Source: Octopus vulgaris
Taxonomy: Eukaryota
Direction of reading: 5' to 3'
Assembly (NCBI GenBank): GCA_951406725.2
Contig: OX597821.1
Span: 95,790,001-95,854,000, forward strand
Length of the DNA stretch: 64,000 bases
Below, one piece after another: positions 5,341 through 50,078 of the stretch. Each line of letters begins with the position of its first letter. Positions within the stretch are counted from its first letter, which is position 1. The notes under the pieces were generated by a model that was given only the letters and a program-made list of their open reading frames with translations, searched no databases and was not told where the DNA came from. A program made the translations under genes and the position numbers.

Positions 5341-5341
<1 letters not shown>

Positions 5342-5942
5342 CAACAACAATCAAGGAACGGCCATAATAGGCCATTCACCCACTAGAAATAACAGCCAAA
5401 GCTTCAACCGCAAATAAAAGTTAATTCTGTAAACCAGGAGAAAATTTAAAAACATTTACCCTGTAATTTCTTATACGATATACCGTTTCATCTGCTGATT
5501 AATGGTAAACTAACCTGATTAAATTAAATCAAGCCAATCTTCCACAGGCCCTCAGATTCTTCAGTAAGAAATAGCCCAAGTCGGAACAGATATTTTCACG
5601 AGGCATTTCCGACCTTGCCAAGTTTATATCTGACCTAAAATTTTCAAATCGTCGCACTCGCGCCAAATTTATCGGCAGCAAATAAATATAAGCCGTCGAT
5701 TCCATTACGGAATTAACCAGAAAATTCATAATTAATCAATATAGGGTGGCAAAAAAAATTTTGTAGAATTCTTTTGTCACCAGCGGCCTAGTAGGAAAAA
5801 ATTAAATAGTCATAGACCATTTTTAAGTTCAACAACAACAGTTGTTGAACTTAAAAATGGTCTATGACTATTTAATTTTTCCTACTAGGCCGCTGGTGAC
5901 AAAAGAATTCTACAAAATTTTTTTACCCTATATTGATTAATT
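5341..5942 (-). mobile_element. (TA)n-embedded fold-back element with hammerhead motif (probable Penelope-like or non-autonomous derivative)
   Basis: CpG-richer block between two TA microsatellites, with a ~107-bp near-perfect palindrome at 5730-5942 and a hammerhead at 5466-5572. No recognisable ORF. Confidence 0.55.
5466..5572 (-). ncRNA. Type I hammerhead ribozyme motif (canonical core, extended helix II)
   Basis: Minus strand reads AUUUCUUA-CUGAAGA-AUCUG-[~58 nt with a G.U-rich hairpin]-CAGAU-GAA-ACGG-UAUA-UCGU-A-UAAGAAAU. Helix I is 8 bp, helix II 5 bp, helix III 4 bp; the cleavage triplet is GUA. Confidence 0.75.
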
Positions 5943-5943
5943 G

Positions 5944-5984
<41 letters not shown>

Positions 5985-5991
5985 ATACATT

Positions 5992-6036
<45 letters not shown>

Positions 6037-6977
6037 GCTTTAGCATTTCCCTAAATCATCCATAAATTTTTATGGTAAAAATATATATACTGACAGCCTG
6101 ATTTTGAGTATTCACTACTGACTAGCCTACAACTAATAGGCATAACTAGTCTAGTGACCCTAGAGATGCTCATAAGGTGGTTATCTCCCTTCTCACCGAA
6201 TATATGTATTGTGCAATTCTTACCGCATTAAGACTATCGCGGGTGCTACATTACAAAACCTCCCACAGATATAATTAAAATCTAAAAAAATATAAATTGG
6301 CCGCAGAAATGCATGATATACTGAGGAGTCTGCGATACAATTTTACATATATTAGCCAGAAAAATCCACGATGTACCGAATGCATGATAGAGTGTGTGTA
6401 CTGAGTGCATGATAAGGATTAATTTAGCCTAAAGTCCGGATTCACAAGAAACACAGTTGCAAGCTGCCTGAGAAAGGATGTGCAGATATAGTGCATGGAT
6501 CAGAGAGGAATAGCGAGAAAATATTATAAAATGAAAAAAAAAAAAAACCAACCTTGATAGAGATGTAAAGAAAATAATATTTAAAGGAAGCTAAACTTTG
6601 AATGCTATAAAAATGCAAATCATCCTTTCTTTCTTAAATAGGTCCACTTAATTTTTTCCATTCTGTGGAATTTCCCTGGGTCCCATTAGTATATATTATT
6701 ATACATAACATATATATTGTCAATGCATAAGCATACAGCTAACACGTTCTCTATCAAATTTCTTTCATAAGTTGTTGATAAACCTAAAGCTATTCCAAAT
6801 TGTCATTCATTTAAATGCAATCCAGAACCATGTGGTTGCAAAATTAACTCCTTCACAACATTGTCATAAATAATATTCCATTGGCATTCTGTGCCTTTCA
6901 ATTTTCTTCCTCTTTTTCCTGTTATTATTGTAATGTTTAAATTTATATATAATAATGTTTTTTGTTTATTTTTACAG

Positions 6978-7049
6978 ATAGTGAAGGATATACTGGAAGA
7001 ATTTTCAGTAGAAAATGATATCTGGACAGATTCCGATGCTTATAAGCAT
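6978..7049 (+). CDS. DUF389 copy 1 exon (IVKDILEEFSVENDIWTDSDAYKH)
   Basis: tttttacag acceptor; gttagt donor; 72 nt, phase 0/0. Confidence 0.75.
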
Positions 7050-13000: not shown

Positions 13001-16000
13001 ATTGTTATTTTTGTTGTTTGAAAACCTCTTAGTGATACCATCTATACAGAGAGCCTATAGTTAAGCACAGACTAATGACATTAATATAATGAACCATAAA
13101 GTGTTTAATCAATTAAAACGAACAACAAAATTAGTGCTACTGATAAGTCTCTTCAAGAAAGGCAAGCAAGACAACTCTGAAATTCAAATTGTTTAAATAT
13201 TGAATGGTAAAGGGGCATTGAATGGGAAAGTATGATTTATTTTTGCATGCACAATGACAACTCTTAGTATGTTTCAGTCTTGTTAAACCTCTTCAGAAAA
13301 GCTAACTTTTAAATCCCTGAGAAGATAAAGATTTTGAATAGACAAAACATTTAGTGATCAGGCAATTTATAAAAACATGGGAAAGCATGTATTTTAAATA
13401 GTTGATACGATTCAACTAAAGGCAATTTTTTAAAATTTGAACAGAGAATCTCATTATTTCTCTTGCCAAATAAGTTCAACTAAAGAGTTTAAGTTATTTC
13501 TGCTTCTATTCTCGCAGTATGATTTCTGTTATTGGTTTGGTAGAAAACAATTCGGTTGTTTTAGTAGCCAGTATGTTGATATCACCATTGATGGTAAGTA
13601 AACCTTGATATATAACTGGTATTTGAACAGCTTGTTAGGTTTACTAAAATAAAATATCTGTAGTTGTTATTATCATAATACAGTAATAGCCAAATATTGA
13701 AGCATTTAATTGATGGTTCTCACTTTGTCCATCCTAACTTTATTTTGTTTGCAGCTCTTGAAAGATTTTAAATTCACATGTTATGGTCAAGAAAGCAGGA
13801 CTAAAAGGCCATTTTATGTGACATTAAAATTTGAATATCTTCAACAGTAGATATATTAAAAAATCCATATCATCACAGTAAGATAAGATACATATCACAA
13901 AAACATAACAGTTTATCAGTTCTATGATTAATCAAAAACTGATGTTAACTTTATGTTATGGTCGCAAGCTTATCACATATATAATTGGATGCTTTGCAAT
14001 ATTTGTAGCTAGAAATAATAAGATACCTTTTCAAAAATTTACATATCTCATAAAATGACCTTTCACTTAGAGTTCAGATTTTAGGTGGTACACCTATCAT
14101 ATCTGAGTGTATAAAAGATGCATATTAGATGATCCCAGGTTTTAGCATATTTAGGAAAATAAGTTTTTAGTGCATCAAAGTATGTAATATAGCCACAACT
14201 TCACATATAGGATCTAGGGTGATTTTTTTTGGAGACATTTTTTGATAAAAATGTGCATTTTATATGCCATCAAATATAGTAATCTATCCTCCAGTTTAAA
14301 ATTACCAAATGACCTTTGGGTGCCATTAGTGGAGGTCATTTGTGTTACAATCGCTCTTGGTCAGATCGTCAGTGTAAGAATAACTTTCTTACCAATCTTG
14401 GAGGCCTTGAGAATGGACAAAAGTCATAAGGCACCACCTTCACTATTCTCACTAAACATTTATAACGAAAATGAAAATGTAAAAATGGCAGTGATAGATG
14501 TATAATGACAAAATATACATATATATATACATATATATAGATGTATAATGACAAAATATTTGGTTGGTTGACAGAAGAAAAATCTGCATGAAGTCCAAAT
14601 ATAAAAGTATTTAATTCTTAGCTAAAAAAGTGTTGTCATTGCAACAACAACAGAAAAAAAGAGAGAGAATCAGTTTGTATAACAATATCAGTCTGTATAA
14701 CAATAGCGGCAGCAATGACAATAGTTTGTAGTAGTCATTGAATTCTGTAGCTGAGTGAGGGGGTGTAAGTTCCTGCTACTAGTTAGCTTCTGTTGTATTA
14801 CAACCACTGGTCAGTTATCAGGCAAGCCATCCCTGTGTACCCAATGGTCTGTCAAAGAAAATCCTGGAGAGAAAGCAGACAAGCAGAGTCTCATGAATGT
14901 CTAATGCTAATTTGCATAGAAAGCAGAGCACAAAATAGTTAGAAAGAGCAGCTGGGTATGAGCTGATTTATGTGGAGAGAGAGAGAGATGTGATGCAAAT
15001 TTACACTGAGTGTTGGATGAAAAGGCTCTGTGTGCAGGTTCTACTTAATTCTTGTATTTGCTAGACTTTTCCACCTTTATGCTTTGTGTATTGTAGGTTT
15101 ATGTATATTTTAAAATTGTTTTTCTCCTGTTCTTTTGTCAGGGCCCAATACTGGCAGGGACTTTTGGTATTGTGATCCAAAATTATTCTTTACGAAATCT
15201 TGGTCTGAGATCAGAATCAATTGGTCTTGCATTGTGCATTATCTGTGGTCAGTTGGATACTTTCTTTCATTTTTCGAGTTGGATATGTACAGACTGTGTG
15301 AAACATGTGGAAGAAGTGTGATTGTACATGATTGTGAGGTATTGATGTTTGATGTGGAAAATCTCTGGAGAACCTGAAGAGAAATGAGTGTCAAGTATGA
15401 TATGATGCATGTGTAACAATAAAGACATCTCCCTGTCTTACATCACTACCTGAACCACAGGTACTTTTGATGGGATTTACTCACTAGCAAGCATTCATTA
15501 AATCAAGTTCTCTAAGTGTGTGAATGTGTGTGTGTGTGTGCATGCATCCATGTGTGTGTGTGTCTCTTTGTGTTTGTATTTGTCCCTCACCGCCACTTGA
15601 CAAGCAGTGTTGGTGTGTTTAAATCCCTCTGTCTTAGCCATATGGCAAAAGAGTTTAATAGAATAAGTACCAAGCTTTAAAAATGCAAGTGCTGGCATAC
15701 TTTATTTGGCCAAAAATTATTCAAGGCAGTCCCCATGATGGCTGCAGTCTAATAACTGAAACAAGTAAAAGATAAAAAGACATATATGCATACACACACA
15801 TACACATGTATATATATTTTCATCTAGGGTTTATCTTTGGACTAATCATTGGTTCCATCCAACTCCAAGGAATGACAGGATATATTGATGAATGGCCCAC
15901 TATGGAAATGAAGTCCAGGTAAGCATCATTTCGTATTTTCATCTATTAAGACTGTTTGACAACTCTCACTTGCAATGTCATTTTAAACATTGTGACATTT

Positions 16001-16538: not shown

Positions 16539-16608
<70 letters not shown>

Positions 16609-17841
16609 GAGAAAAAAAAAAGAAAAATACTGACAGGATCTAGGATGCATCACCCAAAATCTGACATAGAAAGACTATATATACAACGTATAGAAGGTGG
16701 TAGAGGCCTTATACAGCTGGAAAACTACTATAAAATAACCACCATAGGACTGCAAAAATACCTACTTCAGAAGGAAGGAAAACTGATCCAGATAGCAGCA
16801 AAACATGAGCAAAACAAAAAACTGTTCTCAGTATTTAAGGAAGCTGACAAATACAAACAAGAAATCATACCACCTAATAAACACAAAGAAGAAGAAGAAG
16901 ATGATGAAGAAACAACAAAAGCTATAAAACAAATGAAATCCAAACTAAAAATAGAACAGCAACGAGCCATGATAAAACGATGGCAAGAAAAGCCCCTACA
17001 TGGTAAATACTGCACTAAACTAAACGCAAAAGAAATAGACAAAGAAAAGTCCCAGCAATGGTTGAGAAGCTCAGGACTCAAAGCAGAAACAGAGGGATTT
17101 TTAATTGCAGCACAAGACCAAAGCCTCCCCACCAGAAATTACTAAAAACATGTAATGAAAAGAAATATTACAAGTAACTGCAGAATATGTGGAGATGGAC
17201 AAGAAACAATAAATCATATTATCTCTAGCTGCCCAGTCCTGGCTAAGAAGGAATATATTCACAGACATGACAGAGTTGGAACCTACATACATTGGAAGCT
17301 ATGCCAACATTATGGAATAACAACAGAAAAAAGATGGTATAGGCACACACCAGAAAAGGTCACAGAAAACGAGAAAGCAACCATACTCTGGGATATGCCG
17401 ATACACACAGATAGAGAAATTAAGGCCAACAGACCAGATATAGTTGTCAGAGATCATGAAGAAAAAAATGCTTTCTAATTGATGTATCAATACCGGCAGA
17501 TGACAACGTGTCTCTAAAAGAAATGGAGAAACTCTCAAAATACAAAGACCTGGAAATAGAGATAACTAGAATGTGGAACCTGAAAACAGAAACAATTCCT
17601 ATCATAGTAGGTGCATTAGGCATGATAAAAAAATATTCAGACAAATACATAACAAAAACACCAGGACTTACAAACACATATAACATACAGAAAATTGCAC
17701 TACTAGGCACTGCACACATCCTACGCAGAACACTTTTCATACAATAACCATCAGAGCATCACAACAAATCACAGCACATACCCAAGGCACACAGAGCTGC
17801 GCTCGGTAGTGAAGTGAAAGCACGCTATAAAAATAAAACTA

Positions 17842-17880
<39 letters not shown>

Positions 17881-20800
17881 CCTTTCTAGATTCTAGATTT
17901 TTGCTCTCATATCTGGAATTTCTTCTCTAAATTTATTATAGATTCATCTAAAAGAGTCAGATCATCAGCATATAGAGGTTCTTATGGATAGCCAGTCCTA
18001 AACTCCGAAGAGACAAAGATTGAACCTTGATAGACTGCTTACTTTCACTTTACTGACTGTGCATTTGTATGCAGTTTATGCAGCCTTCACAAGCCATTTA
18101 TCTACATCTTGTTTCTTTAATGACCACCACATCTCTGGCCATAATACCCTTTCAGAGGCCTTCTCCAAATCAACTTATGCTAGATAAAATAGCTTGCTCT
18201 TAGCTAAGTACTTTTGAAATTACCTCACTAGTAAGATGGCATCTGTGGTACCTCTTCCAGGCATAAAGCCAAACTACATCTTATGTAGGCTAATTGTACT
18301 ATGATTCTTTCTGTGACTTTCATAGCCTGGTCCAACAATTTGATGCTTCTGTAATTCCTCTCTCTAATGCCCCTCCTTTGCTCTTCTAGCAATTTACAAT
18401 GACACAACTATGCCAGTCATTGCTTATGACAATTTCCTGGTTAAATATTTAGCCCATTAGACATAATTGCTGATGGACTAACAACTTTCAGACCTGTAAT
18501 TGCTTTATGTCTCATATTGCTGTCAACTTGAATTGCCAGTTCCTCTGTTGGGTCAGCATGAGATTAAACTTTCTTTATTCTATGCATTCTCCTTGTTCAA
18601 CAACCTTTCATAAAAGCACGACTAAGCTTCTGTTTTGCCGTTAACATTGAAGACAAATCTGCCTCTGTTTTCATTTCTAACACTCTTCTCTCTTATGCTA
18701 ACTTGGTTTTCTGCGACACATTATCTTGCAATCTGCAACAGTTCATGCTTCAAATCCTCACATTGAGAAACATGTTCAAATCTATTCTTTTCTGCCTTCC
18801 TCATAGCTTAGTATACCTAATGCCTAGCTTCCCTGACTGTCATCTCAAGTTAAACAAATTCCTCAATCTCTTCCACCTCGTTGTTGTTGATTTTTACATG
18901 AGCTTATTGTCTGGCTTTATTTTGAAGTGTTTTACATTTTTCTGGGTTGAGTTTAAGGCTAATTCTGTCAGTGTTCTCTGCCAGTCTGTGTGTCTTGCTT
19001 TAGTTATATTCATAGGATGATGATAGCAACACTAGGTTGTCCACAAAATTGAAATCTTCGAACATGCTCATGAGGTTCCATCTAATGCCATTCCTATGCT
19101 TTTCTGTGTGCTTCACATGATCCTGTCTATTGCCATGAGAGTGCTCTCTACTTTCAACTTCCTTCCAGACTCTCCAAGAGTGTCTCTTAGTTTTCATAAC
19201 ACTATCTATTGTGTCATTTCACTAACACAACAGCTTCTGCTAAGCCAAGACCTTGCACCAGTCACATCTGACTTATAGCCCACAGCGGGTTATCTTACAA
19301 GAATTCCAAGTTGTTGTCTATCTCCCCCGTCCAAATTTCATGCACATCAACTAGAATTTCTCTAAACTTATGACCTAGACCATCTGTTGGACTCTTTAGC
19401 TTCTCGTCTTCTGTCTCTGCATCTCTAGTTCTGGCTCAAAAGTCACTAATCACTAATCAGATTTAAATAGAGCATTCTTCACCTGTCGCGTTTCCTGATG
19501 AAAATTAATTCTGATTTTTCTGTTGAATGATTATTATGTCTAATATTATTTGCTACCACCTGGCCCACAGGTACTTTTAGTGAAGCTCACTCAGATGTAA
19601 GCATTTGGTCTGCGGATAACAGTCTCTGCCCAGCAATTAATTTCCAGGAAGCAGTTTATCATTTACTTGCTGTTTTTTTATTTCTTTCTTTCTCTCTTCC
19701 CACCAGAGGTATGAGTCGTAGTCTGTGGATTGGTATCTTCATAGCACTCCCAACCGGTGCTGGAGTGTCTCTGTCTGTTCTGGGTGGTAACTCTAAGCCA
19801 CTGGTTGGAGTTGCCATATCTGCCTCACTTCTTCTACCTGCTGTCAATGCTGTAAGTAGACTTCAACCTCTTTGGTCTTCTCTCTTTGTCTGTCTGCTAG
19901 TCTGCCAATTATAACTTACCTTCTCTTCCTTCACCTACCATTCTTCAAATGTCTGCTCTTCTAATTAATTAGCTGCTAAATTACCTTCAGTGTGATTATC
20001 ATCATAACTAACAGATCTATTGCTGTCATTATAATCATCATTATCAAAATTACCTTATCCCTTGACATTATTGTGAACAACATCAGGGTCACAAACATCC
20101 TTACTCTCATCATCTTTTCAACATCACCAGTAGCAATAATCATGTTAATTAAACTACTTATTGTCTACAATATTATAACCATCAGCACATTATCATCACA
20201 ATTCTGCTCATTATTCTCATTACTTTTTTTTTAGGTTAAAATTTCAAATTAACAAAATTAAGATATTTTCATTTTAATAAATCATTATTATACACAAATA
20301 AAGAAAAATCTTATTCAAAATATATGCTACTATTTTATAACCATTTAAAATAAATTATTTCATAAAAACTGAAAATATTAACTGTTTCATAATAACTGAA
20401 AATATAGTAAAATATAGTTCAAATATGTTTGAGGCATATTTTAACTTATAAAGGCTATTTCATTGCAGTTTAAGGTGGAGAAAAAAGTCTTGCTAAGGTA
20501 AAAAGGTGTAAGAAGACCATTGTCAACTTAAAGCACCCTTTGGACTGAGAGATGCATTCTTACATGCTTCTACTTACATATTTGATCCAGCCTGGTGTCT
20601 TATGCACACAAATAAGTAAATATTATTTGCTGATTTTTAAAAATAAAGCTAAGGCTTTCCAACCAGCCCAGAGTTGCTTCTCTTAGTACTTGGTATTAAG
20701 ACAGCTTACAAACTAGAAATTCATGTATTTGTCCAGAGGGTGCTTTAAACTGACAGTGGTGTTCTTAGACCTTTTTACTTCAAGCAAGAATATTTTCTCC

Positions 20801-23796: not shown

Positions 23797-24429
23797 CTAA
23801 TATCTATATATCTATATATATATATATAAGAATATTATTGTTTATAATAATATCAGTGGCTTAGCATGCATAAAAAACCATAAAGGTAAAATCACCAATT
23901 AATAATTAAGGGTACTAACAGGTAGTCCCAGCATGCTGAAATAGCAGTCAAAATGACCAAACCACAAGTTCTCACTTAAACACAAAGATGAAGGCAAGCA
24001 AATGAACACTGATATTATTATAAACAATGAATTCTTACATATTTATATAATTTTTTATTCACTTTGATCACCTTTTTAAATTTGCTGTGGCATTAAAAGC
24101 AGTCATCGCACACATTGGTTGAGATGAGCAAACTCTTCAACCCTGGATCAGTAAGACTCACTGAAGATGAACTCAGAGTACTTCTCAGAGTTTGAAATCA
24201 TGATGATATGGGTATGTCCGACTTTTGCAGTTTTCGTTTTTATTTTCAGCATCCATATGGGGCCTTAGGGTTTTTGTTCATTTGCCCTTCCTTCACCTTT
24301 ATGTTTAAGTGAGAACTTGTGGTTTGGTCATTTTCACTGCTATAATAGCATGCTGGTACTGCTTGTTAGTACTCTTAACTATTAATTTAAAAATATATGT
24401 ATACATACATGTATGTATGTGTGTGTGTG

Positions 24430-24484
<55 letters not shown>

Positions 24485-25832: not shown

Positions 25833-25864
<32 letters not shown>

Positions 25865-31800: not shown

Positions 31801-33522
31801 AAGAGGGCATTCAAGAAAGAACAAGAAAACAAAAAGGGGGCACCATTCAATCCTATATCTTATTTTATGCATTTCATCACCATCAATAATCACCATTGTC
31901 ACCAACACTATCAACATCATCAGCAGTGAGTCAATAAATGGAACTGGACAGTCCTAGATGCATTGTGCCTGAAAAAGGAGAGGGTGGTAGACATCAGTAA
32001 TGAGTGATAAGGATGTAACAGATGAATGGTGAGAAGGAAGTAACGGCTGTACATACACACATCATCATCATCATCATCATCATCGTTTAACGTCCATTCT
32101 CTATGCTAGCATGGGTTGAACGATTCAATCCAGGTCTGGGAAGCCAGAAGGCTGCATCAGGCTCCAGTCTGATCTGACAGTGTTTCTGCAGCTGGATGCC
32201 CTTCCTAACGCCAACCACTCCGTGAGTGTAGTCGGTGCTTTTTTCCATGCCACTGGCACAGGAGCCAGAGGAGGCTGGCAAACGGCCACAATCGGTTGGA
32301 GCTTTTATGTGTCACTGACACAGATGCCTGTCAGGCGACACTGGCATCTGCCATGTTTGGACGGTGCTTTTTACGTGTCACCGGCACGGGTATCTTAACT
32401 ACAATTTCCATTTGATTTTTATTTTGATATTGACTTACTTGACTCAATAGGTCTCCTCAAGAACAGCGGGTCACTCTATGATCCAAGGTTAGCACAGCAA
32501 GCCGTCCTGCGACCCATTTGTCGGGTCTTCACAGTCACAGCTTATTTCAGAGGTCTCGGTCTTCATCATTTCCTTTGTGAGGCCCTACATGCCACCAGCA
32601 CGGGTATCACAACTACAATATCCATACGATATTTATTTTGATGTTGATGAACTTGACACAATAAGTCTCTCAAGCACAGCAAGCCATCCTGCAAGCCATG
32701 AACTCACTTCATTTGTCGGGTCTTCGAAGTCACAGCATATCTCCAGCATATATACACAACATATGTACACATATGTACATATTTTCATATCAGTAATATG
32801 CTACTCAATGATATGAATGTGTGTGTGTGAGTGTTTGTGTATATGTGTGTATTGTTTGGACCATTTTATCAGATCATAGTGAATCATGTTGCATCGTTGC
32901 ATTTCATTACATTGTTGTTCAACAACCGACAGCTGAAATCTCAAATACCAGTCCTGTGGGAACAAAATTTTGATTGCAATTTTAATGTGAACACGAGTAG
33001 TTTCATGTGGGTTGATATTAACAGGATTGAAAGAATTGTTACAAAATGAAAAATTTGAAAGTTTTTATATTGATTTTATTTCCTATGGCTTGAGTGGCAT
33101 GGAGTGTGATGACTCCACCAATCTGGCTTCTAAACTGTTTTACTACATGATAACAAAAGTGCCAGACATTCCATCATGACTCAGTGCGTTCTGGGACTCA
33201 CTTCCTTCCAGTTTAGGTTAACAATTGTTGGCAAACAATGGGTATTGAAACTGTGTTACAAGCTTGATTTGTTTGGTGCTTACCTCTTTTTGTATAGTAT
33301 TCAGCTCTAGAATTGAACACCTTTTTCACATTATAGGCGCAGGAGTGGCTGTGTGGTAAGAGGCTTGCTTACCAACCACATGGTTCCTGGTTCAGTCCCA
33401 CTACGTGGTACCTTGGACAAGTGTATTTTACTATAGCCTCGGGCTGACCAAAGCCTTGTTAGTGGATTTGGTAGACGGAAACTGAAAGAAACCCGTTGTA
33501 TATATGTATGTGTATATATATC

Positions 33523-33561
<39 letters not shown>

Positions 33562-37040: not shown

Positions 37041-37398
37041 GTAGCATTGCTGAAGCAAAGGATGGCTGTAGTGTGTGTATGCATCGATACTTGTGTGTGA
37101 ATTAGTGGGAAGAATGTGTAAGGTTAGTCAGTAATATTGATTTTAAATTTTGGCACAAGGCCAGCAACTGCAGTGAAGGAAGTAAGTCAATTACATCAAC
37201 TCCAGTGTTCAACTGGTACTTACTTTATAGACCCTGAAATGACAAAAGACAAAGTCAGCCTCTGCACAATTTGAACTCAGAACATAAAAGACAGAGGAAA
37301 CGCCTCTAAGCATTTTACCCAGTGTGCTAATGATTCTGCCTTAATGTTAGTCAGTAACATTAACTCTACTCTTATCTGCAAGCCTTGGTAAAGCGGGG

Positions 37399-37404
37399 AA
37401 TAAA
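37399..37404 (+). promoter_or_regulatory. Candidate polyadenylation signal of copy 1
   Basis: AATAAA ~360 nt after the stop codon, followed by GT-rich sequence; conserved in copy 2 (52036-52041, - strand). Confidence 0.35.
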
Positions 37405-37789
37405 TATTTGTGAAGGTATGTGTATGTGTATGAATTGTTGGACAGGATGTGTATAGTGAGTGATATACATTCAGAAGAATTTGTAAATATGGATGTGTGT
37501 ATGTGTGTGGCATTAACTAGTGTATTTTGGGTAGCCAGAATGTACAGTGTGCACATGGCTATATATGTGGAAACAGTGTATATTTGTGTGCATGTGTGTA
37601 GGGGGGTTATCTGTTCAAACAGTGTATGTTTGTGCATCTGTGTGCTTGTGGTTGTGTATTTAAAAATGCATATATTTTATGTGTATAGGTGAAAATCATG
37701 ATGACAGTGATATGCATGTGTAGTTATCTTTCCATAAAAGAGAAATGTGTGTGTGTGTGTCTATACACCTCTATTCATATATATAAGGA

Positions 37790-37831
<42 letters not shown>

Positions 37832-37833
<2 letters not shown>

Positions 37834-38890
37834 AAGGATGTTCCCTGGTTCAAGTGAATCTCTGAGGATTCTTGCATGTTCAGCTATGCATAACTTACAA
37901 CGCTTCATCCTGTTGATTTATAGGCTTGGGTTCTGGAGGATTTTCCATGAGATTGTGTATGGAATCCCATCAACTCTTAGTTGCCAGATCTGGCCGGCCA
38001 ATGATGTCACATATCTCATTTCTGGCACTCTGAAGGAGGACCTGTGGTTGGAGAGACATCGCTTAAAAGAGTTCCTAGAACATCCAATATGTCTCCATGG
38101 TTGTGTGTTGTTGGTGCAGTATGTGTTGTTATTGTTGTTGTTGCTGCTACAGCTGACATTGTTGTCTTTGGAGCCGGGGCTGTTGGTGTTGGTGTCAATG
38201 GAGGTGATGTTAGCATTGGTAATGGTATCCCCACTGCTGGTTATGGTGAAGGCACTGTTGTGTTATTGTGTTATTGTTGATAATGCTGGTGCTGATGGCA
38301 ATGCTGCTGCTGTTGTTGTTATTGTTTGGGATGTTGCCATCGGAGGAACTGCCAATGGAGATACATTGAATGTTCTGGGAACTCTTTTAAGCAACATCTC
38401 TCCAACCACAGTTCCTCCTTCAGAGTTCTGGAAAGAAGATACATAACATCACTAGCCAGCCATTTCTGGCAACTAAGAGATGATGGGATTCCATACTCGA
38501 TCTCATGGAAAAGAACTCAGGCCTCTACATCAACGGGATGAAGCATTGCAAGTTATGCATAGCTGTACATGCAAGAATCCTAATAGACTCACTTGCACCA
38601 GGGAATATCCTTAATTCCAGAATGGATTTTTTCGGACAATGTTTATATTTCAAGAGGCTTCTACTAGCCTTCTGGTGCCCGCAAGATTGTGGCACAACTG
38701 GAAGTTAATAGCCATTATCAAAGGGAGATAATTCCCAGTTGTTATCTTTGAGTAGCGAGGCATTTCCCCCTCCATATTTTTAAGAGGTCTTGGGCCAACA
38801 GGTTTTCAGGATCTGACAATACGCCATAAAGCTAAACCCTTTATAGACAGGAAACCTAAGGTAATCCCATAAACCAGCCTTCTCTATTTT
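37832..38890 (+). mobile_element. Penelope-like retroelement remnant: GIY-YIG endonuclease C-terminus plus inverted partial copy
   Basis: The + strand from ~38355 to ~38700 gives WRYIECSGNSFKQHLSNHSSSF..TSLASHFWQLRDDGIPYSISWK/..HCKLC..ILNSRMDFFGQC (frameshifted). The - strand at 37832-38100 gives WRHIGCSRNSFKR..ISWKIL..CKLC. Flanked by (TA)n. Confidence 0.8.
38801..38875 (+). ncRNA. Degenerate type I hammerhead motif downstream of a Penelope-like GIY-YIG remnant
   Basis: GGUUU..GGAU-CUGACAA-...AUAAAG..CUUUAU...-GAA-ACC-UAA-GGU-A-AUCC..AAACC. The core carries G8->A and the base of helix II is eroded. Confidence 0.5.
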
Positions 38891-38948
38891 TAATATATAT
38901 ATATATAGATATATATGTCTGTGTGTGTATATATACATATGTGTGTGC

Positions 38949-38996
<48 letters not shown>

Positions 38997-39075
38997 CTCT
39001 ATCTATCTCTCTATCTATCTATCTATCTATCTATCTATATGTATATACAAACACATATGCATATATATATGTTTT

Positions 39076-39128
<53 letters not shown>

Positions 39129-40989
39129 GTGTGTGTATATATATATATATATATATACGCACACTCACACAAACACATATATGTATGTACGTATTTTAAA
39201 CAGATGTTTCCTTCATGTGGTTGTGTTTGAAACTGGAGACATAACGTATGTATATAGCAATAAACAACCCCCACCACCCACAAAAAATAACCGAGTATGC
39301 ATGGTAGGTTTGAAACCCAGACATCCCACTTTGCATCATTTGCTCCTTATTTGTATCGGTGATTTCCTTCTTGAGCAATGGCCCAGACAGATATCAAAGA
39401 TCCACTGGACTGACATGATCCCTGAGAAATGACATGGGGACTGAGCCCTCTCTAATGACCCAACAACCCATTAAAAGTCACTGGATATTTTCATTTTCAC
39501 ACACACAGACATGTTTATATATTTAAAGAATGTTTTTTATAAATATAAAACAGTGGATATAATTTGAAGAAAAGACTCAAGTCATCATTAATATCATTAT
39601 TATTATTGTCTATGTTTATGTACTAAGTTCAAATTTCGTTGTGGTAGACTTTACCTTTCATCCTTTCAGAGTCAACAAAATTAGTTAATTAGTACCAGTT
39701 GAGCACTGGGGGCAATGCAATTAATTATTCCCCTTCCCCAAAATTTCAGGCCTTGTACCTATAAGGGAAATATTATTAATATTATTAATTATTTTATTGA
39801 CTGTAACTTTGAAGTTTTGCAAGTAGTTGACTTTGTCAGGCAACAGTCTTGATAAGGCCAACTACTGAGGAAACCTTAAAGTCACTGGCAAAGCTTGCTC
39901 CCTGACCCCCTGGTTCTAGGTTCCATGTGGCATCTTGGGCAAGTGTCTTCTACTATCTCCCCAGGCTGACCAAAGCCTTGTGAGTAGATTTTGTAGATGG
40001 GAACTGAAAGAAGCCTGTAGCATATATATATGTTTATACCTATGTGTGCATCTTGTGCATGCATCTGTTTACATTGCTATAACCTAACGGTTTAGAGAAA
40101 AGAAAACGATAGAATAAGTAGCAGGCCTTAGAATACAAAAAGTATTGCGGTTGATTTCTTTGACTAAACTCTTCAAGGCAGTACCCCAGCATGGCCAAAG
40201 TTTAATGACTGAAACAAATGGATAACAAGTGAAAGACATTAATATACACATTCACATCCATACACAGATATGTAATTATCATCATTTTTTTTGTCTACTT
40301 TTCATATTGATATTAATTGAGAAAGTTTTCATGGTCCATATTAGTTCTTGTTCAGAGTTTCTGCTCTCCAAGATGGATTAGATGACCACGTTTCACTTGT
40401 ATATTCTATTTTTGGCATAGTTTCTGCAGCTGGTGGTCCAATCACTTTGCAGAGTATACTGAGGGTATTTTATCATGGTACTGATAACTATGCTGCATTG
40501 GATATGCGATATAAGTATCCACGAATGACATAGTACAAATGTGCTGAAAGAAAAAGTAGGCTTAAAAGGAATTAGATGTAGTGGACAATAAAGAAGACTG
40601 TGTTGATATGGACAGCTGTATGGATGAGGACAGTTATATAAAGAAGTAGTTCTTACATAAAGAAGTGCTTAATGTGAATGGAGTTTGCAGAAGAAGGAAA
40701 CCCAGGAAGACAGAGGACGAATGGTTGAAGGCTGCTCCCAAGACCTTGAACCTCATGGAGGAGATGAGAAGGGACCAGGTAACTGGTGATATGTGGATAT
40801 CGAGAAAACCTGCCCACATCAGCAAAACTAAGTTCTGTGTGTGCTGTATGAATATTATATGCAGTGGCCCAGCAACAAAATTTGCTAAGGGGGTGCAAAC
40901 CCAGGTCCTAATTTTTTAAATGAAAAATGTGGATTTTTCCAATGTTAACATTAAAACAAATGCAGGTATAATAATAACTTTTATTATAA

Positions 40990-42424: not shown

Positions 42425-44665
42425 GTTGTATACAGTGTTCAGGTGCACTACAACTAAAAAGAAAACAAAATGGCCATCAGGTGTACTGTTGGCGGATTTC
42501 AGGATACATGGAAGTTTTGAAGGATGTAGTGTCTCGACAGCTAACAACTGTTGCGTGTGGTTTATTCCATGCTTCTGCAATTCTGAGCATGAAAAATTGT
42601 TTCTGAAAGTCGTAGGTGCTGTGTTGTTTTTTGATTTTATAAGCATGTCCGTGAGTGTTTGTCATATGGAATTCAAAAAGGTACTCAAGGTTGTTGTTGG
42701 AAATATGGTGGATAGTCTTGTGGGTGTCAATCAAGTCAGTTGCCAGACGTCTGGGCTTCAATGTATCCATGCCCAGGAATGCAAGACGTTCAGAGTATGG
42801 TAGATGTCTGACGGTGGGTATTTGCTTTGCTGCACATTTCTGAACAGTTTCCAGGAGATTTATATGCTGACTGGTGGATGCAAATTCCAAGTGTGGACAT
42901 ACCATTATTGTGTACAATTTTAAATAGATAACTGGAGAGTGGCTGACAAAGGTCTTACTGAGTGATGCTAGCACCCACTCAGCCTTTTTGACAATCTTTG
43001 ACATGTCGTTTGTCCAATGCAGATTATTGTTTACAATAATACCCAGATCATGTCCACTAGAAGACTTCTTGAGAATGGTGTTGCTGAGGGAGTATGTAAA
43101 GGCTGGATTTTTCCTCCCAAAATACATGGTGATATACTTGTCTACAGCTAGCTTGATTTGCCAGTCAGAGGTCCACTGCTGCACTGTATCCAGGTCTGAT
43201 TGCAGGATAAGATCTGTTCTTTTTATTTCAAGGTACAGCTTGGTGTCATCTGCATATTTCAGCACTGAAACATTCCTCAAATTGACATCTATATCATTAA
43301 TATATGCAACCAACAGTAAGGGTCCAAGAACAGATCCCTGTGGTACACCAGAAGTAATCTTGTAGGGTGAAGAACAATGTCCTAGAACCATAACTACATC
43401 TTTCTGGCCGAGAATGAAGGACTACAAAGCCAGTTATAGAGATCATACTTCACACTCACTGCAGGGAGTTTTACCATGAGTCGTTTTTGTGGTACAGAGT
43501 TGAAGGCTTTAGCAAAATCAGGGTAGACAGTATCCACCCATGAGCTGGAGTTGGGGATAAAAACAAATTGTGAGGGGTAAATAAGGCTGTGAGAGCACAA
43601 AAAGTTCCAGAGTGTTTCCCTGACACAGGACTCCATCAGTTTGGTGATGCAGCTAGTAAGGCTGACTGGAGGGTAGTTGACAGGTGATGTGCGATCACCT
43701 GTTTTGAACAGGGGAATAACACTGGCAATTTTCCAGTGCTCTGAAGTGACACAGTTGTTAAGGCAGAATTGACAAAAGGAAGAAAGCTGGTGCAATAGAA
43801 AGAACCCACAACGTTTGAGAAGAAAATAAGTTACACCATCAAGACCAGGAGAGGCATAATTGCGCTTATTCTTGAGGTGGTCTCACAGCATTGTGGGTGT
43901 GAAGTTCACAGATGTTATGGAATTTAATGTCAGAGTTGGTGAAGAAGATACATTGGGGTTATCAGCAGTAAAAATGCCAGCATAGCATTCAGCAATAAGC
44001 TCAGTGCATTCCTTGGTGTCATCAGTCATCTGACCTGTGTGGGGAACGTGAAGAGGGCCAGTTAGGGAGTGAGAACTCTGTTTTGAACGCACATATTTTC
44101 AGAACACTTTGCTGTCAGGGCTATCTGCTAGTTGCTATACATCATTCAAACTCAAGCACTGCCTTTTTCGTTGCTTGCTTGAGTCGGTTAGATGATCTGT
44201 TGCATCTTCTTCTGCTCTCATCTGTTCTATGCTGTCTGTATTTCTGTTCAGCATCACAACGATCTTTCCTGGCAAGTCAAACTGCTGCAGTCTCCCAAAT
44301 TGCATTGTTTTTATTTCTAGAGCGTTTGTACAGTAGTGATGCTTCACATGCAATCCAGACTGCACTGAGGATATTTTGAAAAACAGTATTGATATCCCCT
44401 GGATTGTAAAATTCAAACCAGTTTAGGTGTCGTAACTCCTTACGGTAACAGTTCCAGTCAAAGCGAGTGGCTTGACGGTGGTGGTGCTTCTTGTTTCTGT
44501 CTACAAGAGACAGAATGGCAATGATCATAGCATGATTGGAGTCACTTAGAGGTTCCTTTGTCACAACACTGATAACAGTTCTAGGAGAGGTGGTAAAGAG
44601 CAGGTCCAAATGGTTATTACCAACGAAACGTTTCCCATTCAATTTCAGGGTGGCTGAAGTCACCA
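42425..44665 (-). mobile_element. CR1-type LINE remnant (endonuclease tail and RT)
   Basis: Motifs SGVPQGSVLGPLL, KYADDTKLY, DFAKAFNSVP, NYxPVSLTS and HLDLLFT..SDSNH; fragmented by stops and deletions. Confidence 0.9.
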
Positions 44666-44904: not shown

Positions 44905-45134
44905 CGGCGAGCTGGCAGAATCGTTAGCACGCCGGGCAAAATGCTTAGCAGTATTTCTTCTGCTGCTATGTTCTGAGTTCAAATTTCGCCGAGGTCGACT
45001 TCGCCTTTCATCCTTTCGAGGTCAATTAAATAAGTACCAGTTACGCACTGAGGTCGATATAATTGTCTTAATCCATTTGTCTGTCCTTGTTTGTCCCCTC
45101 TGTGTGTAGCCCCTTGTGGACAGTAAAGAAATAG
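44905..45134 (+). mobile_element. SINE family C nested in a family A SINE
   Basis: 12-bp TSD gaaactgaaaga at 44890-44901 and 45135-45146. Confidence 0.85.
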
Positions 45135-45234
45135 GAAACTGAAAGACGCCCATCGTGTATATATATATATATTTATATATATATATAGACATACATATAT
45201 ATATACATATATATATATACATATATATAATCCT

Positions 45235-46196: not shown

Positions 46197-46200
<4 letters not shown>
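45235..46200 (-). mobile_element. RTE LINE 3' end with internal ~170-bp tandem duplication
   Basis: Same tail family; 45586-45750 is repeated at 45757-45925. Confidence 0.8.
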
Positions 46201-46250
<50 letters not shown>

Positions 46251-46334
46251 GTGGATCTTGCATGCATGTTAAATTAACACTGCAACAGAACTTTTCCCAC
46301 AGTGGAACAAAGGTGTTTCTGTGACAGCAGTTTT

Positions 46335-46686
46335 ACATTTTCCAGGTAATCTTGCCCCCATCCTCCATGAAATCTCCTTCCCCTGTCCTCAGAAATTTCC
46401 AGGAAGTGTTTTCCTAAGTAATTTCCATGGAGTAATTCCTCCTCTGAACTTTCGAGGTAATTTCGTCCCCTTGGACTTTTCCAGGTATTCTTATTCCCAC
46501 CCTTGGACCTTTCCAGGTAATCTTATCCTGGATACTTTCCAGGAATTCCTCCCGCCAGAACTTTCCAGGGTGTATCTTTCCCCTTCCTCGAAACTTTCCA
46601 GGCAGTAGTTTTTCGGAACTTTGCAGGAAATTCTGCCACCTCCCCCGGACTTTTCCAGGTGATCTTTTACCTGGAACTTTCCAGGA
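46335..46686. repeat. Array of ~12 palindromic (CCTGGA)ACTTTCCAGG motifs with variable spacers
   Basis: Motif recurs at ~46339, 46375, 46421, 46448, 46475, 46507, 46534, 46559, 46592, 46617, 46649 and 46675. Confidence 0.8.
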
Positions 46687-47049
46687 AAGAGTGGTTATGC
46701 ACCTTCTGTCATTTGAGTCTAACAAATTACCTATATTGTTAAGTGCTTTATGCGTGAGAAACCAATGGTCACTCTATGACGGGCCATAACAATTGACTTC
46801 CTAAAAAAGATATATTACTGCTCTAATGCTTTAGAGCATACTTCCTTTTCAGACATATGACCTACAATATATATTATTGGCTCTTGCTCTGGATGTTGTA
46901 TGAGATTGAGGAAATTGTAATTCATTGTAATCCATTGAATAAACTACATACCAAAGCTCTATGCTAGATGGCAAGTATTTTCACAAATCTTCTTTTCAGG
47001 TAATGAAAAAAGTTCCACAACAACTACCTTCCCACTGTCACTCCCAAGT

Positions 47050-48900
47050 ATAGAATTTCAAGGCTGCTACCATCAACATTGGCACAATGAAAAGAGTGGT
47101 GAGATTATTGAAACACTGGAGCAATGCAATGCTAAAGTGTGCGCTGTGCAAGAAAAGAAATAAGATGGTTGGGGGAGGGGGCAGAGCCTTGGCTAGATTC
47201 CTCATGGGTAAGCAACAGAGGTTCAAATTCTTCTGGGTAAGTAGGAGTGATAGAATGGGTGGTGTAGGCATATTCCTAACAGAAAAGTGAGTAGATAAGA
47301 TAATTGATAGGGTAATTAAGCTGAGATTTATCATAGAAAAATTAACAGTTACATTTACCTCTGTCTATGCTCCTCAGTCTGGGCTGGCAGATAAGCAGAA
47401 GGACCAATACTATGAGGTCCTTTTGTAGACTATCTCAACAACAAATGAGAGAGAGACTTCGTTATTGTGGCTGGTGACTTCAATGGACATCTTGGACAAC
47501 ATCCCTATGGATTCCATGGACAGCATGGTGGTTATGGCTTTGGCCCTCAGAATGAGGAGGGAACAAGGCTGCTGGAGTTTTGTGATGTAAATCTCATGAC
47601 CTGCAACACTAACTTCAGAAAACCAGCAAGCCAGCCACCAAATCACTCATCATTCTGGGGGCCACGTAAGCCAGATTGATTACCTCCTCGCCAGGTAACA
47701 AGATAGACAGATGCTTGCAAATGCAAAGTGTTTCCCAGGTGAAGAGTGTACAACCCAACATAGGTTGCTAGTTAGTGACTTCAGAATTAGAGCTAAAAGG
47801 ACACAGTGAAATAAACTATTCTGGAAAAAATTATGGAAACTCAAAGGCCCAACAAACAGACAGAAATTTGAAAAAGGTGGCGAGCTGGCAGAAACGTTAG
47901 CATGCTGGGCAAAATGCTTAGCGGTATTTTGTCTGCCATTATGTTCTGAGTTCAAATTCAGCCGAGGTCAACTTTGCCATTCATCCTTTTGGGGCCAATT
48001 AAATAAGTACCAATTACACACTAGGGTTGATATAATTGACTTAACTCGTTTGTCTGTCCTTGTTTGTCTCCCCTGTGTGTAGCCCCTTGTGGGCAGTAAA
48101 GAAATAAATAAGAAATTTAGAGATGTCCTAATGAAAGCTTCTGATGAAAGGGATGGAGGACATATAGCTTAAAGTATAAGTGGAAGTTCCAGTAGGACAA
48201 TCTGTGGATGGTGAAAAGTCCCAGCTAGGCTGAAGGTGACATGGTGGTGGAACAAGGAGGTAGACAGTGTATAAAAGCAGAGACAGGCCTGGAAAGACTG
48301 GAAAAATGGTGGAGGCAGAGAATTATATCAGGTAGCCAGAAGGGAAGGTTGGCAACAGGTTTGTAAAGCAAAAGGAATAGCAGAAGGTAAGAGATTCGCA
48401 AATGTTCTACAGTATGAGAATCAAAGGTGTGAAGTGTTCAATATTGCAAAGCAGTATATCAAAGAGAATAGAAATGTGTGCGAATGGATAATGGTATGCT
48501 TTTACTTGTGACTCAGCGAAGAAAGATGCATGGAAATGTCACTATGGAAGGTTACTAAATGGAAAATGCATGGGAAAAGGAGGATCTTTCGGATATAGAA
48601 CAACCTGAGGGAGGTTTGCTTGAGTTTGTGGATAGTTTCTGTTACCTAGGTAACCAAATTAGCAATGATGGAGGATGATCTAATGTATTGTTTCTAGGAA
48701 AAGAATAGGATGGAGGAAGTTCAATGAGGTTTTACCTCTGCTGACATCGAAAGAATTCTCTCCCAAAGGGAAAAGTAGATTGTATGATGCTTGTCAATGA
48801 ACAGCTATACTCCATGGTTAGTGAGACCTGGGCCCAGAATGCTGAAGACATGTACACGAGAAAGGAATGAAGGTAGCATGCTTGGTTGGATGTGCATATA
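47050..48900 (+). mobile_element. RTE LINE remnant (APE endonuclease to RT C-terminus), interrupted by a SINE
   Basis: Motifs GGVGIFL, SVYAPQ, AGDFNGHLG, GYGFGxxNEEGTRLLEFC and VDSFCYLG. Confidence 0.85.
47876..48110 (+). mobile_element. SINE family C nested in an RTE LINE
   Basis: TSD agaaattt at 47862-47869 and 48111-48118. Older copies at ~16130-16330, 37140-37340, 39620-39770 and 52095-52295. Confidence 0.85.
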
Positions 48901-49087
48901 CAACAAAGTGCAAAAGTTAGACATAAAGTGAAGTGCTGGGGTTGATACAACTAACTAAACATCTCCCCTTATAATTGCTGGCCTTGTGCCCAAATTTGAA
49001 ACAGTATGACTGGCTGTATACTTGAGAATAGAGCCTCAGTATGCTCATGGTGCAATGATTAAAGACCTGGATATATATATATATATA

Positions 49088-50078
49088 TACAATAATATGT
49101 TACATTACTCGATAGTCAAGATAAAACTCTGAGTTTCAGATGCCGAAGTGGAAATCCACAACACCATCTCTTCGGTTATCTGGCTATTTGAAAACGCTAT
49201 GAAAAAATACCGTTATATAAAGGGAAATTACTGTGTTATAACTCTGCTTGCCTGCGTACTTATACATCGCTCGCATTTTTCGTCATAAAAATTATATAAA
49301 AATATATAAAATCTTCTTGGGACATAATATAGAAAGTATGTTCTATCTGTTTTCTTTAGGGAACCAAAAACATAACAGAAATTTAGTCACACGTGGGCAT
49401 GATCCGAAAAGTTCTGTCCTTGTGTTTAGACATGTAGTAGGGTCTAAGCTGCTTTTCCAGATAAGCCATCTCTCCATGTCACATAGACTGCACCTTGGTC
49501 TTTAAGAGATAAAGGTATCGATTATAACATACAATGGAAGATTTTGGCCAGATGTAAGCCCTATACCAACGGCAGCGGAAGGTGCGGTCTATGCGACATG
49601 GAGAGATGGCTTATCTGGAAAAGCAGCTTAGACCCTACTACATGTCTAAATACAAGGACAGAACTTTTCGGATCATGCCCACGTGTGACTAAATTTCTGT
49701 TACGTTTTTGGTCCCCTAAAGAAAACAGATAGAACATGCTTTCTATGTTATATCCCAAGAAGATTTTATATATTTTTATATATTTTTTATGTATTTATAT
49801 AATTTTTATGACGAAAAATGCGAGCGATGTATAAGTACGCAGGCAAGCAGAGTTATAACACAGTAATTTCCCTTTATATAACGGTATTTTTTCATAGCGT
49901 TTTCAAATAGCCAGATAACCGAAGAGATGGTGTTGTGGATTTCCACTTCGGCATCTAAAACTCAGAATTTTATCTTGACTATCGAGTAATGTAACATATT
50001 ATTGTACAGATAAATTTCCTCTATTTACATAATATTGAGGTCTCTTTCTTTCTTTTGTTATCTTACCGTTTTATCAAT
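49088..50078 (+). mobile_element. Young 5'-truncated Penelope-like element with ~410-bp inverted arms
   Basis: Arms 49088-49496 and 49579-50006 are near-identical. 49496-49732 encodes WSLRDKGIDYNIQWKILARCKPYTNGSGRCGLCDMERWLI..LNTRTELFGSCPRVTKFLL, a PLE GIY-YIG C-terminus. Inserted in (TA)n. Confidence 0.85.
49119..49181 (-). ncRNA. Variant type I hammerhead motif (CCGAAGA core) in a Penelope-like inverted arm
   Basis: Minus strand reads AGAUAA-CCGAAGA-GAUG..GUGGA/UCCAC..CAUC-U-GAA-ACUC-A-GAGU-U-UUAUCU. The mirror copy at 49913-49975 (+) has two disrupting substitutions. Confidence 0.5.

What the first reader, a model, noticed from the sequence alone, without database searches (positions are those of the whole stretch)
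5341..50078. Recurring system: (TA)n-targeted fold-back elements that each carry a hammerhead ribozyme fold
Seen: four elements with no clear similarity to one another outside short motifs (5341-5942, 23828-24390, 37832-38890, 49088-50078). All share three features: insertion between TA-rich microsatellites, an internal inverted duplication, and a type I hammerhead fold with a short helix III. Two keep a Penelope-type GIY-YIG C-terminus; two have no recognisable ORF. Established: Penelope-like elements (PLEs) carry type I hammerhead motifs in their terminal repeats and often form inverted 5' copies on insertion. Inference: this genome holds several PLE lineages, plus possibly non-coding ribozyme-bearing derivatives (retrozyme-like), that prefer TA microsatellites. 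About four per 64 kb would imply a very large, probably unannotated ribozyme repertoire.
Basis: partly seen in the sequence, partly recalled or inferred. Interest (0 to 1): 0.85.

Follow-up and report, generated by a model that had tools for sequence, protein, structure and literature searches.

The report
Penelope-type hammerhead stubs in TA repeats
Four mirror-image insertions in TA repeats carry hammerhead-shaped RNA motifs (three clear, one decayed); two are cut-short copies of a known class of Penelope-type jumping gene already described from octopus, and the other two are likely short non-coding passengers of the same machinery, so the pattern is real but largely known.

Summary
All four elements (E1-E4) are head-to-head inverted duplications lying between (TA)n tracts. 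A type I hammerhead scan finds 3 hits in the 64 kb, one each in E1, E2 and E4 (0.28 expected; 5 of 2468 shuffles reach 3). E3's fold is decayed and not above chance on its own. E3 and E4 carry the C-terminal endonuclease of Hydra-clade Penelope-like elements (PLEs; profile E 1e-20 to 1e-32). For that clade, (TA)n preference and hammerheads are published, including Hydra-1_Obim from Octopus; inverted 5'-truncated copies and one-sided tails are published for PLEs generally (Craig 2021). E4's end lies on thousands of contig pieces in public runs. E1 and E2 have no endonuclease remnant. E2's arms overlap as a circular permutation of a ~420-nt unit (29/30 match), and E1 may be one ~488-nt unit (9-nt redundancy), so both look like retrozyme-like passengers. 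Only two of five hammerhead copies keep an intact core. E4's abundant subfamily carries the U4C core change. Cleavage, helix covariation and genome-wide counts were not shown. Verdict: new members of known kinds; interest 0.3.

The parts
5342..5838 (-). E1 hammerhead-bearing arm, no ORF; begins and ends with the same 9-nt (TTG)3 word, possibly one ~488-nt unit
5466..5572 (-). E1 type I hammerhead: helix I 8 bp, intact core, 68-nt extended helix II, helix III 3 bp with near-palindromic loop; predicted cut between 5474 and 5473
5841..5942 (+). E1 second arm, head-to-head copy of the first ~107 nt of the long arm (102/102 aligned bases identical)
23829..24008 (-). E2 second arm: copy of 24275-24387, then 38 nt, then a 30-nt copy of the start of the other arm (circular permutation)
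24007..24390 (+). E2 hammerhead-bearing arm, no endonuclease remnant; in a probable intron of a DUF389 gene, same strand
24156..24213 (+). E2 type I hammerhead: helix I 5 bp, intact core, one extra U before helix II (6 bp, G-U closing), helix III 4 bp; predicted cut after 24208
37833..38354 (-). E3 inverted arm: Asn/Thr-rich low-complexity stretch, then Hydra-type endonuclease (38142-37858, one stop), cut off inside the endonuclease at the TA tract
38355..38890 (+). E3 forward arm: frameshifted Hydra-type endonuclease C-terminus (38347-38690), 3' UTR, decayed hammerhead
38809..38867 (+). E3 hammerhead relic: helix I 4 bp, core CTGACAA (G8A), helix II lost at the junction, helix III 3 bp
49089..49496 (-). 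E4 inverted arm: endonuclease C-terminus, 3' UTR, hammerhead; ends at the short 3' end
49119..49181 (-). E4 hammerhead, core CCGAAGA (U4C), helix I 6 bp, interrupted helix II, self-complementary helix III with 1-nt loop
49497..50076 (+). E4 forward arm: Hydra-type endonuclease C-terminus (49493-49741), 3' UTR, second hammerhead copy, tail
49913..49975 (+). E4 second hammerhead copy with a further core change (G12A) and a helix III change
50007..50076 (+). E4 one-sided 70-nt tail, absent from the inverted arm
51670..51685 (.). (TA)8 at the position paralogous to E3 in the other arm of a 12.9-kb inverted duplication; E3 and about 370 nt of microsatellite are absent there

Best explanation
All four are likely insertion stubs left by Penelope-like (PLE) retrotransposon machinery: E3 and E4 are truncated, head-to-head copies of the 3' end of Hydra-clade PLEs, and E1 and E2 are likely short non-coding hammerhead units copied by the same kind of enzyme. 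Shown: the arms, the TA flanks, the endonuclease remnants in E3/E4, three hammerhead folds, E4's one-sided 70-nt tail, E2's 30-nt circular overlap, and the multicopy state of E4's end. Inferred from published PLE biochemistry (PMC11167929): the RT-endonuclease protein nicks both strands of an AT-rich target, here a (TA)n tract, and primes cDNA from two nearby internal start points on the RNA. Two incomplete cDNAs meet head to head, giving a fold-back whose arms end a tail-length apart (70 nt in E4, about 68 nt in E2). For E2 the longer end runs on into the sequence that begins the other arm, so its template was likely a tandem or circular RNA with a ~420-nt unit; E1 may be the same with ~488 nt. 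The hammerhead sits near the 3' end of the unit. It is predicted to cut weakly, as a dimer or with protein help, and the copies read through the cut site, so uncut or re-joined RNA was the template. Most copies are now decaying.
For: Endonuclease: phmmer with E4's 77-aa piece finds 1317 proteins at E<=0.001. A profile of 149 of the top 150 hits matches only E3 and E4 in the six-frame window (E 1e-6 to 1e-32; next best 1.3). Of those 149, 144 have CxxC..E and 132 have N..E..CxH; the one full-length hit has the DKT motif and a CxCx5C linker, the Hydra hallmarks listed in PMC8557442 section 11. By eye, E3 shares NHRSSFRVPE with Hydra-1_Obim and E4 shares LNxRTExxGSCP. E4's helix III equals that of Penelope-3_HM in that paper's hammerhead table, and 26 of its 27 Hydra families are listed as (TA)n. 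Inverted 5'-truncated copies and one-sided tails are the described PLE layout. Hammerhead excess over shuffles; the 3 blind hits all fall in short inter-TA gaps that make up 15% of the window. E4's end is covered by many variant contigs in runs under three organism labels, with summed depth 4e5-2e6 against tens in the lowest covered flank bin (not a copy number). E2 overlap 29/30; E1 redundancy 9 nt, which 16 of 100,000 random pairs reach.
Against: No RT or full-length parent is in the window, and no whole genome was available. E1 and E2 are known from one copy each; nothing ties them to Hydra rather than another PLE clade. E1's redundancy is a low-complexity word found among 16 end-pair comparisons. 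E3's arms differ by 14.3%, more than the surrounding duplication (2.8-7.7%) from whose other arm E3 is missing. So either its arms came from two different RNAs or it is older and was deleted, and the empty (TA)8 does not prove a pre-existing target. E3's inverted arm stops inside the endonuclease, not at a 3' end. No compensatory helix change was listed among variants at 5% or more in E4's hammerhead. In E1, E2 and E4 the hammerhead fold lies 1.5-4 kcal/mol above the predicted minimum-energy fold. Rfam models do not match.
Confidence: 0.72

Rival explanations
1. All four are plain 5'-truncated ends of autonomous PLEs. E1 and E2 were cut short inside the 3' UTR, and their end-to-start matches come from template switching during insertion or from chance. 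No separate non-coding element exists.
For: E4 has about 170 nt and E3 about 120 nt between the end of the endonuclease match and the hammerhead, so a stub cut inside the UTR would look ORF-less. PMC4209133 reports that most PLE hammerheads lie in dispersed truncated copies. E1's redundancy is weak.
Against: E2's forward arm runs hammerhead then segment C, while its other arm runs C then the start of the forward arm; one ~420-nt circular order explains both without extra jumps. E1 has about 265 nt upstream of its hammerhead with no endonuclease trace, and E1 and E2 run 125 and 177 nt past the hammerhead against 25-30 nt in E3 and in E4's short arm.
Confidence: 0.3
2. The elements did not target TA tracts: they landed in AT-rich DNA and the (TA)n arrays grew afterwards, or the association reflects how the first reader picked them.
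For: E3's site carries about 370 nt more microsatellite than its paralogue, so tracts do grow or shrink there. E3 may predate the duplication. Flanks of other E4 copies could not be read.
Against: A (TA)8 run sits at the paralogous site without E3. Hammerhead and endonuclease searches blind to TA hit only TA-bounded elements. 26 of 27 published Hydra families are listed as (TA)n.
Confidence: 0.12
3. They are foldback DNA elements or replication-made palindromes at microsatellites, and the hammerhead folds are chance.
For: The descriptor had to be loosened; no Rfam match; E3's fold is at chance level.
Against: Two perfect-core folds against 0 of 2468 shuffles. The arms face head to head rather than forming terminal inverted repeats, and hold PLE endonuclease in E3 and E4.
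Confidence: 0.04

Closest known systems
Hydra-clade Penelope-like elements, including Hydra-1_Obim of Octopus bimaculoides (Craig et al. 2021, PMC8557442; abstract, passages, section 11 and supplement parts 2, 24, 52, 53 read)
   Same: C-terminal endonuclease with CxxC and CxH around the conserved E and N; type I hammerhead with a short self-complementary helix III near the 3' end; (TA)n insertion sites; an inverted 5'-truncated copy (noted for Penelope-13_HM); a low-complexity Asn/Thr stretch before the YIG motif, as in Hydra-1_Obim.
   Different: E3 and E4 are other families than Hydra-1_Obim (different UTRs and helix II, compared by eye). They are stubs without RT. E4's subfamily has a U4C core, whereas all Hydra rows of the paper's table have U4. 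E4's tail is 70 nt against the 30-40 nt described. E3's low-complexity stretch is much longer.
Metazoan non-LTR retrozymes (Cervera and de la Pena 2020, PMC7229834, passages read; Li et al. 2026, 10.64898/2026.07.22.740005, part 1 of 5 and passages read)
   Same: Non-coding units of a few hundred bases with one type I hammerhead; proposed to be non-autonomous PLE derivatives; monomer copies are common.
   Different: E1 and E2 are single, inverted two-armed insertions in (TA)n, not head-to-tail arrays with two hammerheads. Their inferred units (~420, ~488 nt) are longer than the 220-390 nt described. E1 has a 68-nt helix II. No circular RNA or cleavage was shown.
PAc, the Poseidon PLE of Anolis (Frangieh et al. 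2024, PMC11167929, parts 1-2 of 4 read)
   Same: Supplies the mechanism: both-strand nicking of AT-rich DNA, two internal RT start points that make the tail, a protein-assisted hammerhead not needed for insertion in vitro.
   Different: Another clade; nothing of this was tested for Hydra elements or for these copies.
Cephalopod Naiad PLEs (same paper, supplement part 24)
   Same: (TA)n preference, found in octopus.
   Different: N-terminal endonuclease, no canonical hammerhead; the 3' ends of Naiad_Obim, Naiad_Ovul and Naiad_Omin do not resemble E1 or E2 by eye.

Membership tests
Hydra-clade PLE (E3, E4) | C-terminal GIY-YIG endonuclease followed by UTR and hammerhead | tested here: met
   Profile hits 49493-49741 (+), 49504-49325 (-), 38142-37858 (-), 38347-38690 (+); hammerheads lie downstream on the same strand
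Hydra-clade PLE (E3, E4) | CxxC and CxH motifs flanking the conserved E and N | tested here: met
   CxxC-x-x-E present in E4 and in E3's minus arm; the CxH histidine is changed in both copies (CPR, CLY) but present in 132 of 149 relatives
Hydra-clade PLE (E3, E4) | RT with DKT and RWK motifs, CxCx5C linker | tested here: inconclusive
   Not in the stubs; DKT and the linker are present in the one full-length relative P0129, the linker in 19 of 64 hits of 150 aa or more
Hydra-clade PLE (E3, E4) | Canonical type I hammerhead | tested here: inconclusive
   E4: right architecture with U4C (second copy also G12A); E3: G8A relic at chance level
Hydra-clade PLE (E3, E4) | Insertion into (TA)n | tested here: met
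   All 4 ends at (TA)>=5 runs; paralogous site holds (TA)8, with the age caveat
Hydra-clade PLE (E3, E4) | Placement in the clade by RT phylogeny | not testable with these tools
   No RT in the window and no genome held
Hydra-clade PLE (E1, E2) | Endonuclease remnant | tested here: not met
   No profile or tblastn hit (best profile E 2.8 in E2)
Non-LTR retrozyme (E1, E2) | Type I hammerhead with intact core, no coding capacity | tested here: met
Non-LTR retrozyme (E1, E2) | Head-to-tail tandem units, each with a hammerhead | tested here: inconclusive
   No tandem array here; only partial redundancy: 29/30 nt in E2, 9 nt in E1
Non-LTR retrozyme (E1, E2) | Multicopy family | tested here: inconclusive
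Non-LTR retrozyme (E1, E2) | Self-cleavage and circular monomer RNA | not testable with these tools
   Needs transcription assays and divergent RT-PCR
Naiad PLE (E1, E2) | Similarity to cephalopod Naiad 3' ends; absence of a canonical hammerhead | tested here: not met
   By-eye comparison with three consensus ends; both elements have complete folds
Rfam hammerhead families | Covariance-model match | tested here: not met
   No hammerhead match up to E 10 for E4, E2, E1; E3 not scanned alone

The most novel reading that the evidence does not exclude
E1 and E2 are cephalopod-type retrozymes: ~488-nt and ~420-nt non-coding hammerhead RNA circles or tandems that a Hydra-clade PLE enzyme copies from two fixed start points into both ends of a cut (TA)n tract. 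The insertions would then be a direct genomic record of which enzyme moves animal retrozymes. E4's U4C subfamily, amplified to very high copy number, would show that spread does not need an efficient ribozyme.
Probability: 0.4. Interest if true: 0.55.

Novelty: new member of a known kind. Interest (0 to 1): 0.3.

Why it matters
For annotation: in this genome, fold-backs between TA tracts with a hammerhead are PLE stubs that Pfam and Rfam both miss, so hammerhead counts from Rfam alone will be far too low here. For mechanism: the link between retrozymes and PLE enzymes rests so far on co-occurrence and sequence relatedness (10.64898/2026.07.22.740005). If E1 and E2 prove to be short non-coding units with the PLE two-armed, tailed footprint, that link becomes testable with a purified Hydra protein. 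The U4C subfamily offers a natural test of whether cleavage matters for spread. None of this needs a new kind of element.

Tried and rejected
Whole-genome analysis: no genome held. Rfam: window scan dominated by microsatellite noise, 150 of 196 rows shown, no hammerhead; single scans of E4, E2, E1 gave none. First hammerhead descriptor: 0 hits in the elements, one unrelated loose hit. Pfam: nothing for E4's peptide or for 7 relatives. Word-based protein search for longer relatives: none. Exact-pattern scans for E1, E2 and E4 in viral and metagenome contigs: 0 in all 5 scans. Run search: no RNA holder listed. In run X15, guessed to be RNA, one variant set of E4's end is much commoner than in X1 (e.g. 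98% against 14% at 49185); the run type is a guess and no silent control was laid, so it is not used as evidence. Flanks of other E4 copies could not be read because contigs are cut at the TA tract. Earlier scan notes by sequence: nothing for E1, E2 or E4. A by-eye reading of E2's segment C as an endonuclease tail was not supported by the profile. Naiad origin for E1/E2: rejected by eye. Loose hammerhead-like cores at 4493, 5141 and 24660 (all - strand) lack the helices. The paralogous empty site as proof of targeting: weakened.
Full report
Setting. The window is 37% G+C animal DNA rich in microsatellites and old repeats. No whole genome is held, so everything rests on the window, public protein and read collections, and papers. 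That the host is a cephalopod is my inference from the likeness to Hydra-1_Obim. I call the four elements E1 (5342-5945), E2 (23829-24390), E3 (37832-38890) and E4 (49089-50076).

Inverted arms and TA flanks. All four have head-to-head arms: E1 102/102 aligned bases identical, E2 99/112, E3 222/259, E4 399/409. Self-BLAST shows no similarity between the four. Seven of eight ends lie within 10 nt of a (TA)>=5 run, against 2.4% of window positions; E2's right end meets a mixed AT-rich microsatellite. Of the 16 gaps of 150-1100 nt between TA runs (15% of the window), the four with inverted arms over 100 nt are these four.

Hammerheads. My first descriptor found none in the elements. Allowing one bulged base beside helix II, as PLE hammerheads have (PMC4209133, parts 1-2 of 4 read), and a longer helix II gave three hits in the whole window: E1 and E2 with perfect cores, E4 with CCGAAGA. 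In 2468 block-wise dinucleotide shuffles none had two perfect-core hits and 5 had three hits of any kind; the descriptor was tuned after the fact. The chance that three blind hits all fall in the short inter-TA gaps is about 0.003. E3's motif has G8A and no helix II at the junction, and is not above chance (8 hits against 3.3 +/- 1.8); only its place, after the endonuclease and about 25 nt from the end, marks it as a relic. E4's second copy has G12A. So two of five copies keep an intact core. The forced hammerhead fold lies 1.7, 1.5 and 4.1 kcal/mol above the minimum in E1, E2 and E4. Rfam does not match.

E3 and E4 are Hydra-clade PLE ends. E4's 77-aa piece finds 1317 proteins at E<=0.001. 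A profile from 149 of the best 150 (one repetitive hit, P0031, left out) matches both arms of E3 and both arms of E4 and nothing else in the window. The relatives carry CxxC..E (144 of 149) and N..E..CxH (132 of 149), and the one full-length hit has DKT and a CxCx5C linker. Craig et al. 2021 (PMC8557442; abstract, passages, section 11, supplement parts 2, 24, 52, 53 read) define the Hydra clade by these motifs, report canonical hammerheads, and list (TA)n for 26 of 27 families, among them Hydra-1_Obim from Octopus bimaculoides. By eye, E3 shares NHRSSFRVPE and E4 LNxRTExxGSCP with that element, and E4's hammerhead has the same layout; these comparisons were not run through an aligner. The same paper draws the typical PLE copy with an inverted 5'-truncated partner and a tail at one end only. 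E4 is that picture, with a 70-nt tail.

E4 is multicopy. Laid on 48850-49280, four runs gave 6230, 4565, 3055 and 344 contig pieces; these counts include another short repeat at 48955-49014. Summed depth over the hammerhead end reaches 2.2 million, 1.3 million and 0.4 million in the first three, against 24, 190 and 5 in the lowest covered flank bin. The tool warns that this is no copy number; it shows a large family under three organism labels. Only two variants at 5% or more fall in the hammerhead: one puts a C before G12 (35% in X1 and X3), the other lies in an internal loop. No compensatory pair was listed. No G>A change was listed in any run, so the abundant subfamily keeps C4, while loose ends show a sister subfamily with the canonical U4. 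U4C strongly lowers cleavage in vitro but is tolerated in a viroid (PMC3088659, passage).

E1 and E2 look non-coding and unit-like. Neither holds endonuclease sequence. In hammerhead sense, E2's long arm reads A-hammerhead-B-C and its short arm reads C-x-A', where A' matches the first 30 nt of A at 29/30. One circular order of about 420 nt explains both arms, and their two 3' ends are then about 68 nt apart, like E4's tail. E1's long arm starts and ends with the same 9-nt (TTG)3 word, which suggests a unit of about 488 nt; 16 of 100,000 random pairs reach 9 nt, but the word is low in complexity and I compared 16 end pairs. E3 and E4 show no such redundancy. Each rests on one copy. Retrozymes of 220-390 nt are known from coral, mussel and axolotl (PMC7229834, passages), and a 2026 preprint argues that they are non-autonomous PLE derivatives (10.64898/2026.07.22.740005, part 1 of 5 and passages; its supplements were not seen and may list a cephalopod). 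Earlier scan notes on this genome describe 492-nt and 360-nt two-armed families; they are unchecked leads, and I could not match E1 to them.

The empty site. A 12.9-kb inverted duplication pairs 26920-39829 with 51191-64000. Where the left arm holds E3 and about 370 nt of extra microsatellite, the right arm holds (TA)8. This fits insertion into a TA tract. But E3's own arms differ by 14.3% (10.7% outside CpG sites), more than the duplication arms (2.8-7.7%). Either the arms were copied from two related RNAs, or E3 is older and was deleted between TA tracts. The site is therefore only weak support.

How it most likely works. For the anole PLE, purified protein nicks both strands of AT-rich DNA and starts cDNA at two internal points that define the tail; its hammerhead cuts only with protein and is not needed for insertion (PMC11167929, parts 1-2 of 4). 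Applied here by inference: a Hydra-type protein cuts a (TA)n tract, copies RNA onto both ends, and the two short cDNAs join head to head. Its own RNA gives E3 and E4; short hammerhead RNAs give E1 and E2. All long arms read through the predicted cut site, so the template was uncut or re-joined. Which clade moved E1 and E2 is not shown.

Novelty. The three shared features are published for this clade or for PLEs generally. Large repertoires are published too: 9,000 in Xenopus, up to 120,000 in axolotl (section title), 235 Rfam hits in giant squid (PMC6962438, passage). Three folds per 64 kb would scale to roughly 100,000 in a genome of octopus size (size recalled; one window, wide error). I found no paper on cephalopod retrozymes or on a U4C PLE family in searches; the library lacks most subscription papers, Repbase and Dfam. 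Verdict: real, new members of known kinds, with a possible variant in E1/E2. Interest 0.3.

Noticed in passing
window 26920-39829 and 51191-64000: Inverted segmental duplication of at least 12.9 kb, 3-8% diverged, with private insertions in each arm; it runs off the end of the window.
   Followed up: partly
window 15140-15260, 19709-19852, 25235-25405 (+): Exons of a DUF389 membrane-protein gene (Pfam PF04087 for the first two; the third from splice sites and a hydrophobic frame only). E2's intact-core hammerhead would lie in an intron on the sense strand.
   Followed up: partly
window 38100-38354 (-): About 85 codons of Thr/Asn-rich low-complexity sequence just before the YIG motif of E3's endonuclease, far longer than the similar stretch in Hydra-1_Obim.
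   Followed up: partly
window 629-1035, 25615-26029, 33330-33755, 55716-56140, 60342-60757, 1-213: A ~410-nt repeat family made of two halves joined by a (CA)n(TA)n tract, 84-93% alike; no hammerhead hit.
   Followed up: no
window 50106-50330: tRNA-like SINE head (by eye) directly right of E4, with weak matches at 60818-60923.
   Followed up: no
window 48955-49014: A short repeat with very high summed depth in all four runs laid.
   Followed up: no
window 20416-20558 / 20718-20861: An older inverted repeat (80%, 144 nt) with no TA flanks and no hammerhead hit.
   Followed up: partly
window 24474-24730: 257-nt segment between two TA tracts right of E2 with a loose hammerhead-like core at 24660 (-) that lacks helices I and II; perhaps a very old stub.
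   Followed up: partly
window 5936-5942 and 24381-24387: E1's short arm and E2's long arm both end in the palindrome ATTAATT before the microsatellite.
   Followed up: no
window 4727-5036, 5095-5200, 6031-6213: Older local duplication (72-80%) on both sides of E1.
   Followed up: no
window 42477-43882 (-), 16609-17747 (+), 2951-3256 (-): Decayed LINE-type reverse transcriptase fragments (Pfam RVT_1, zf-RVT), unrelated to the PLE stubs.
   Followed up: partly
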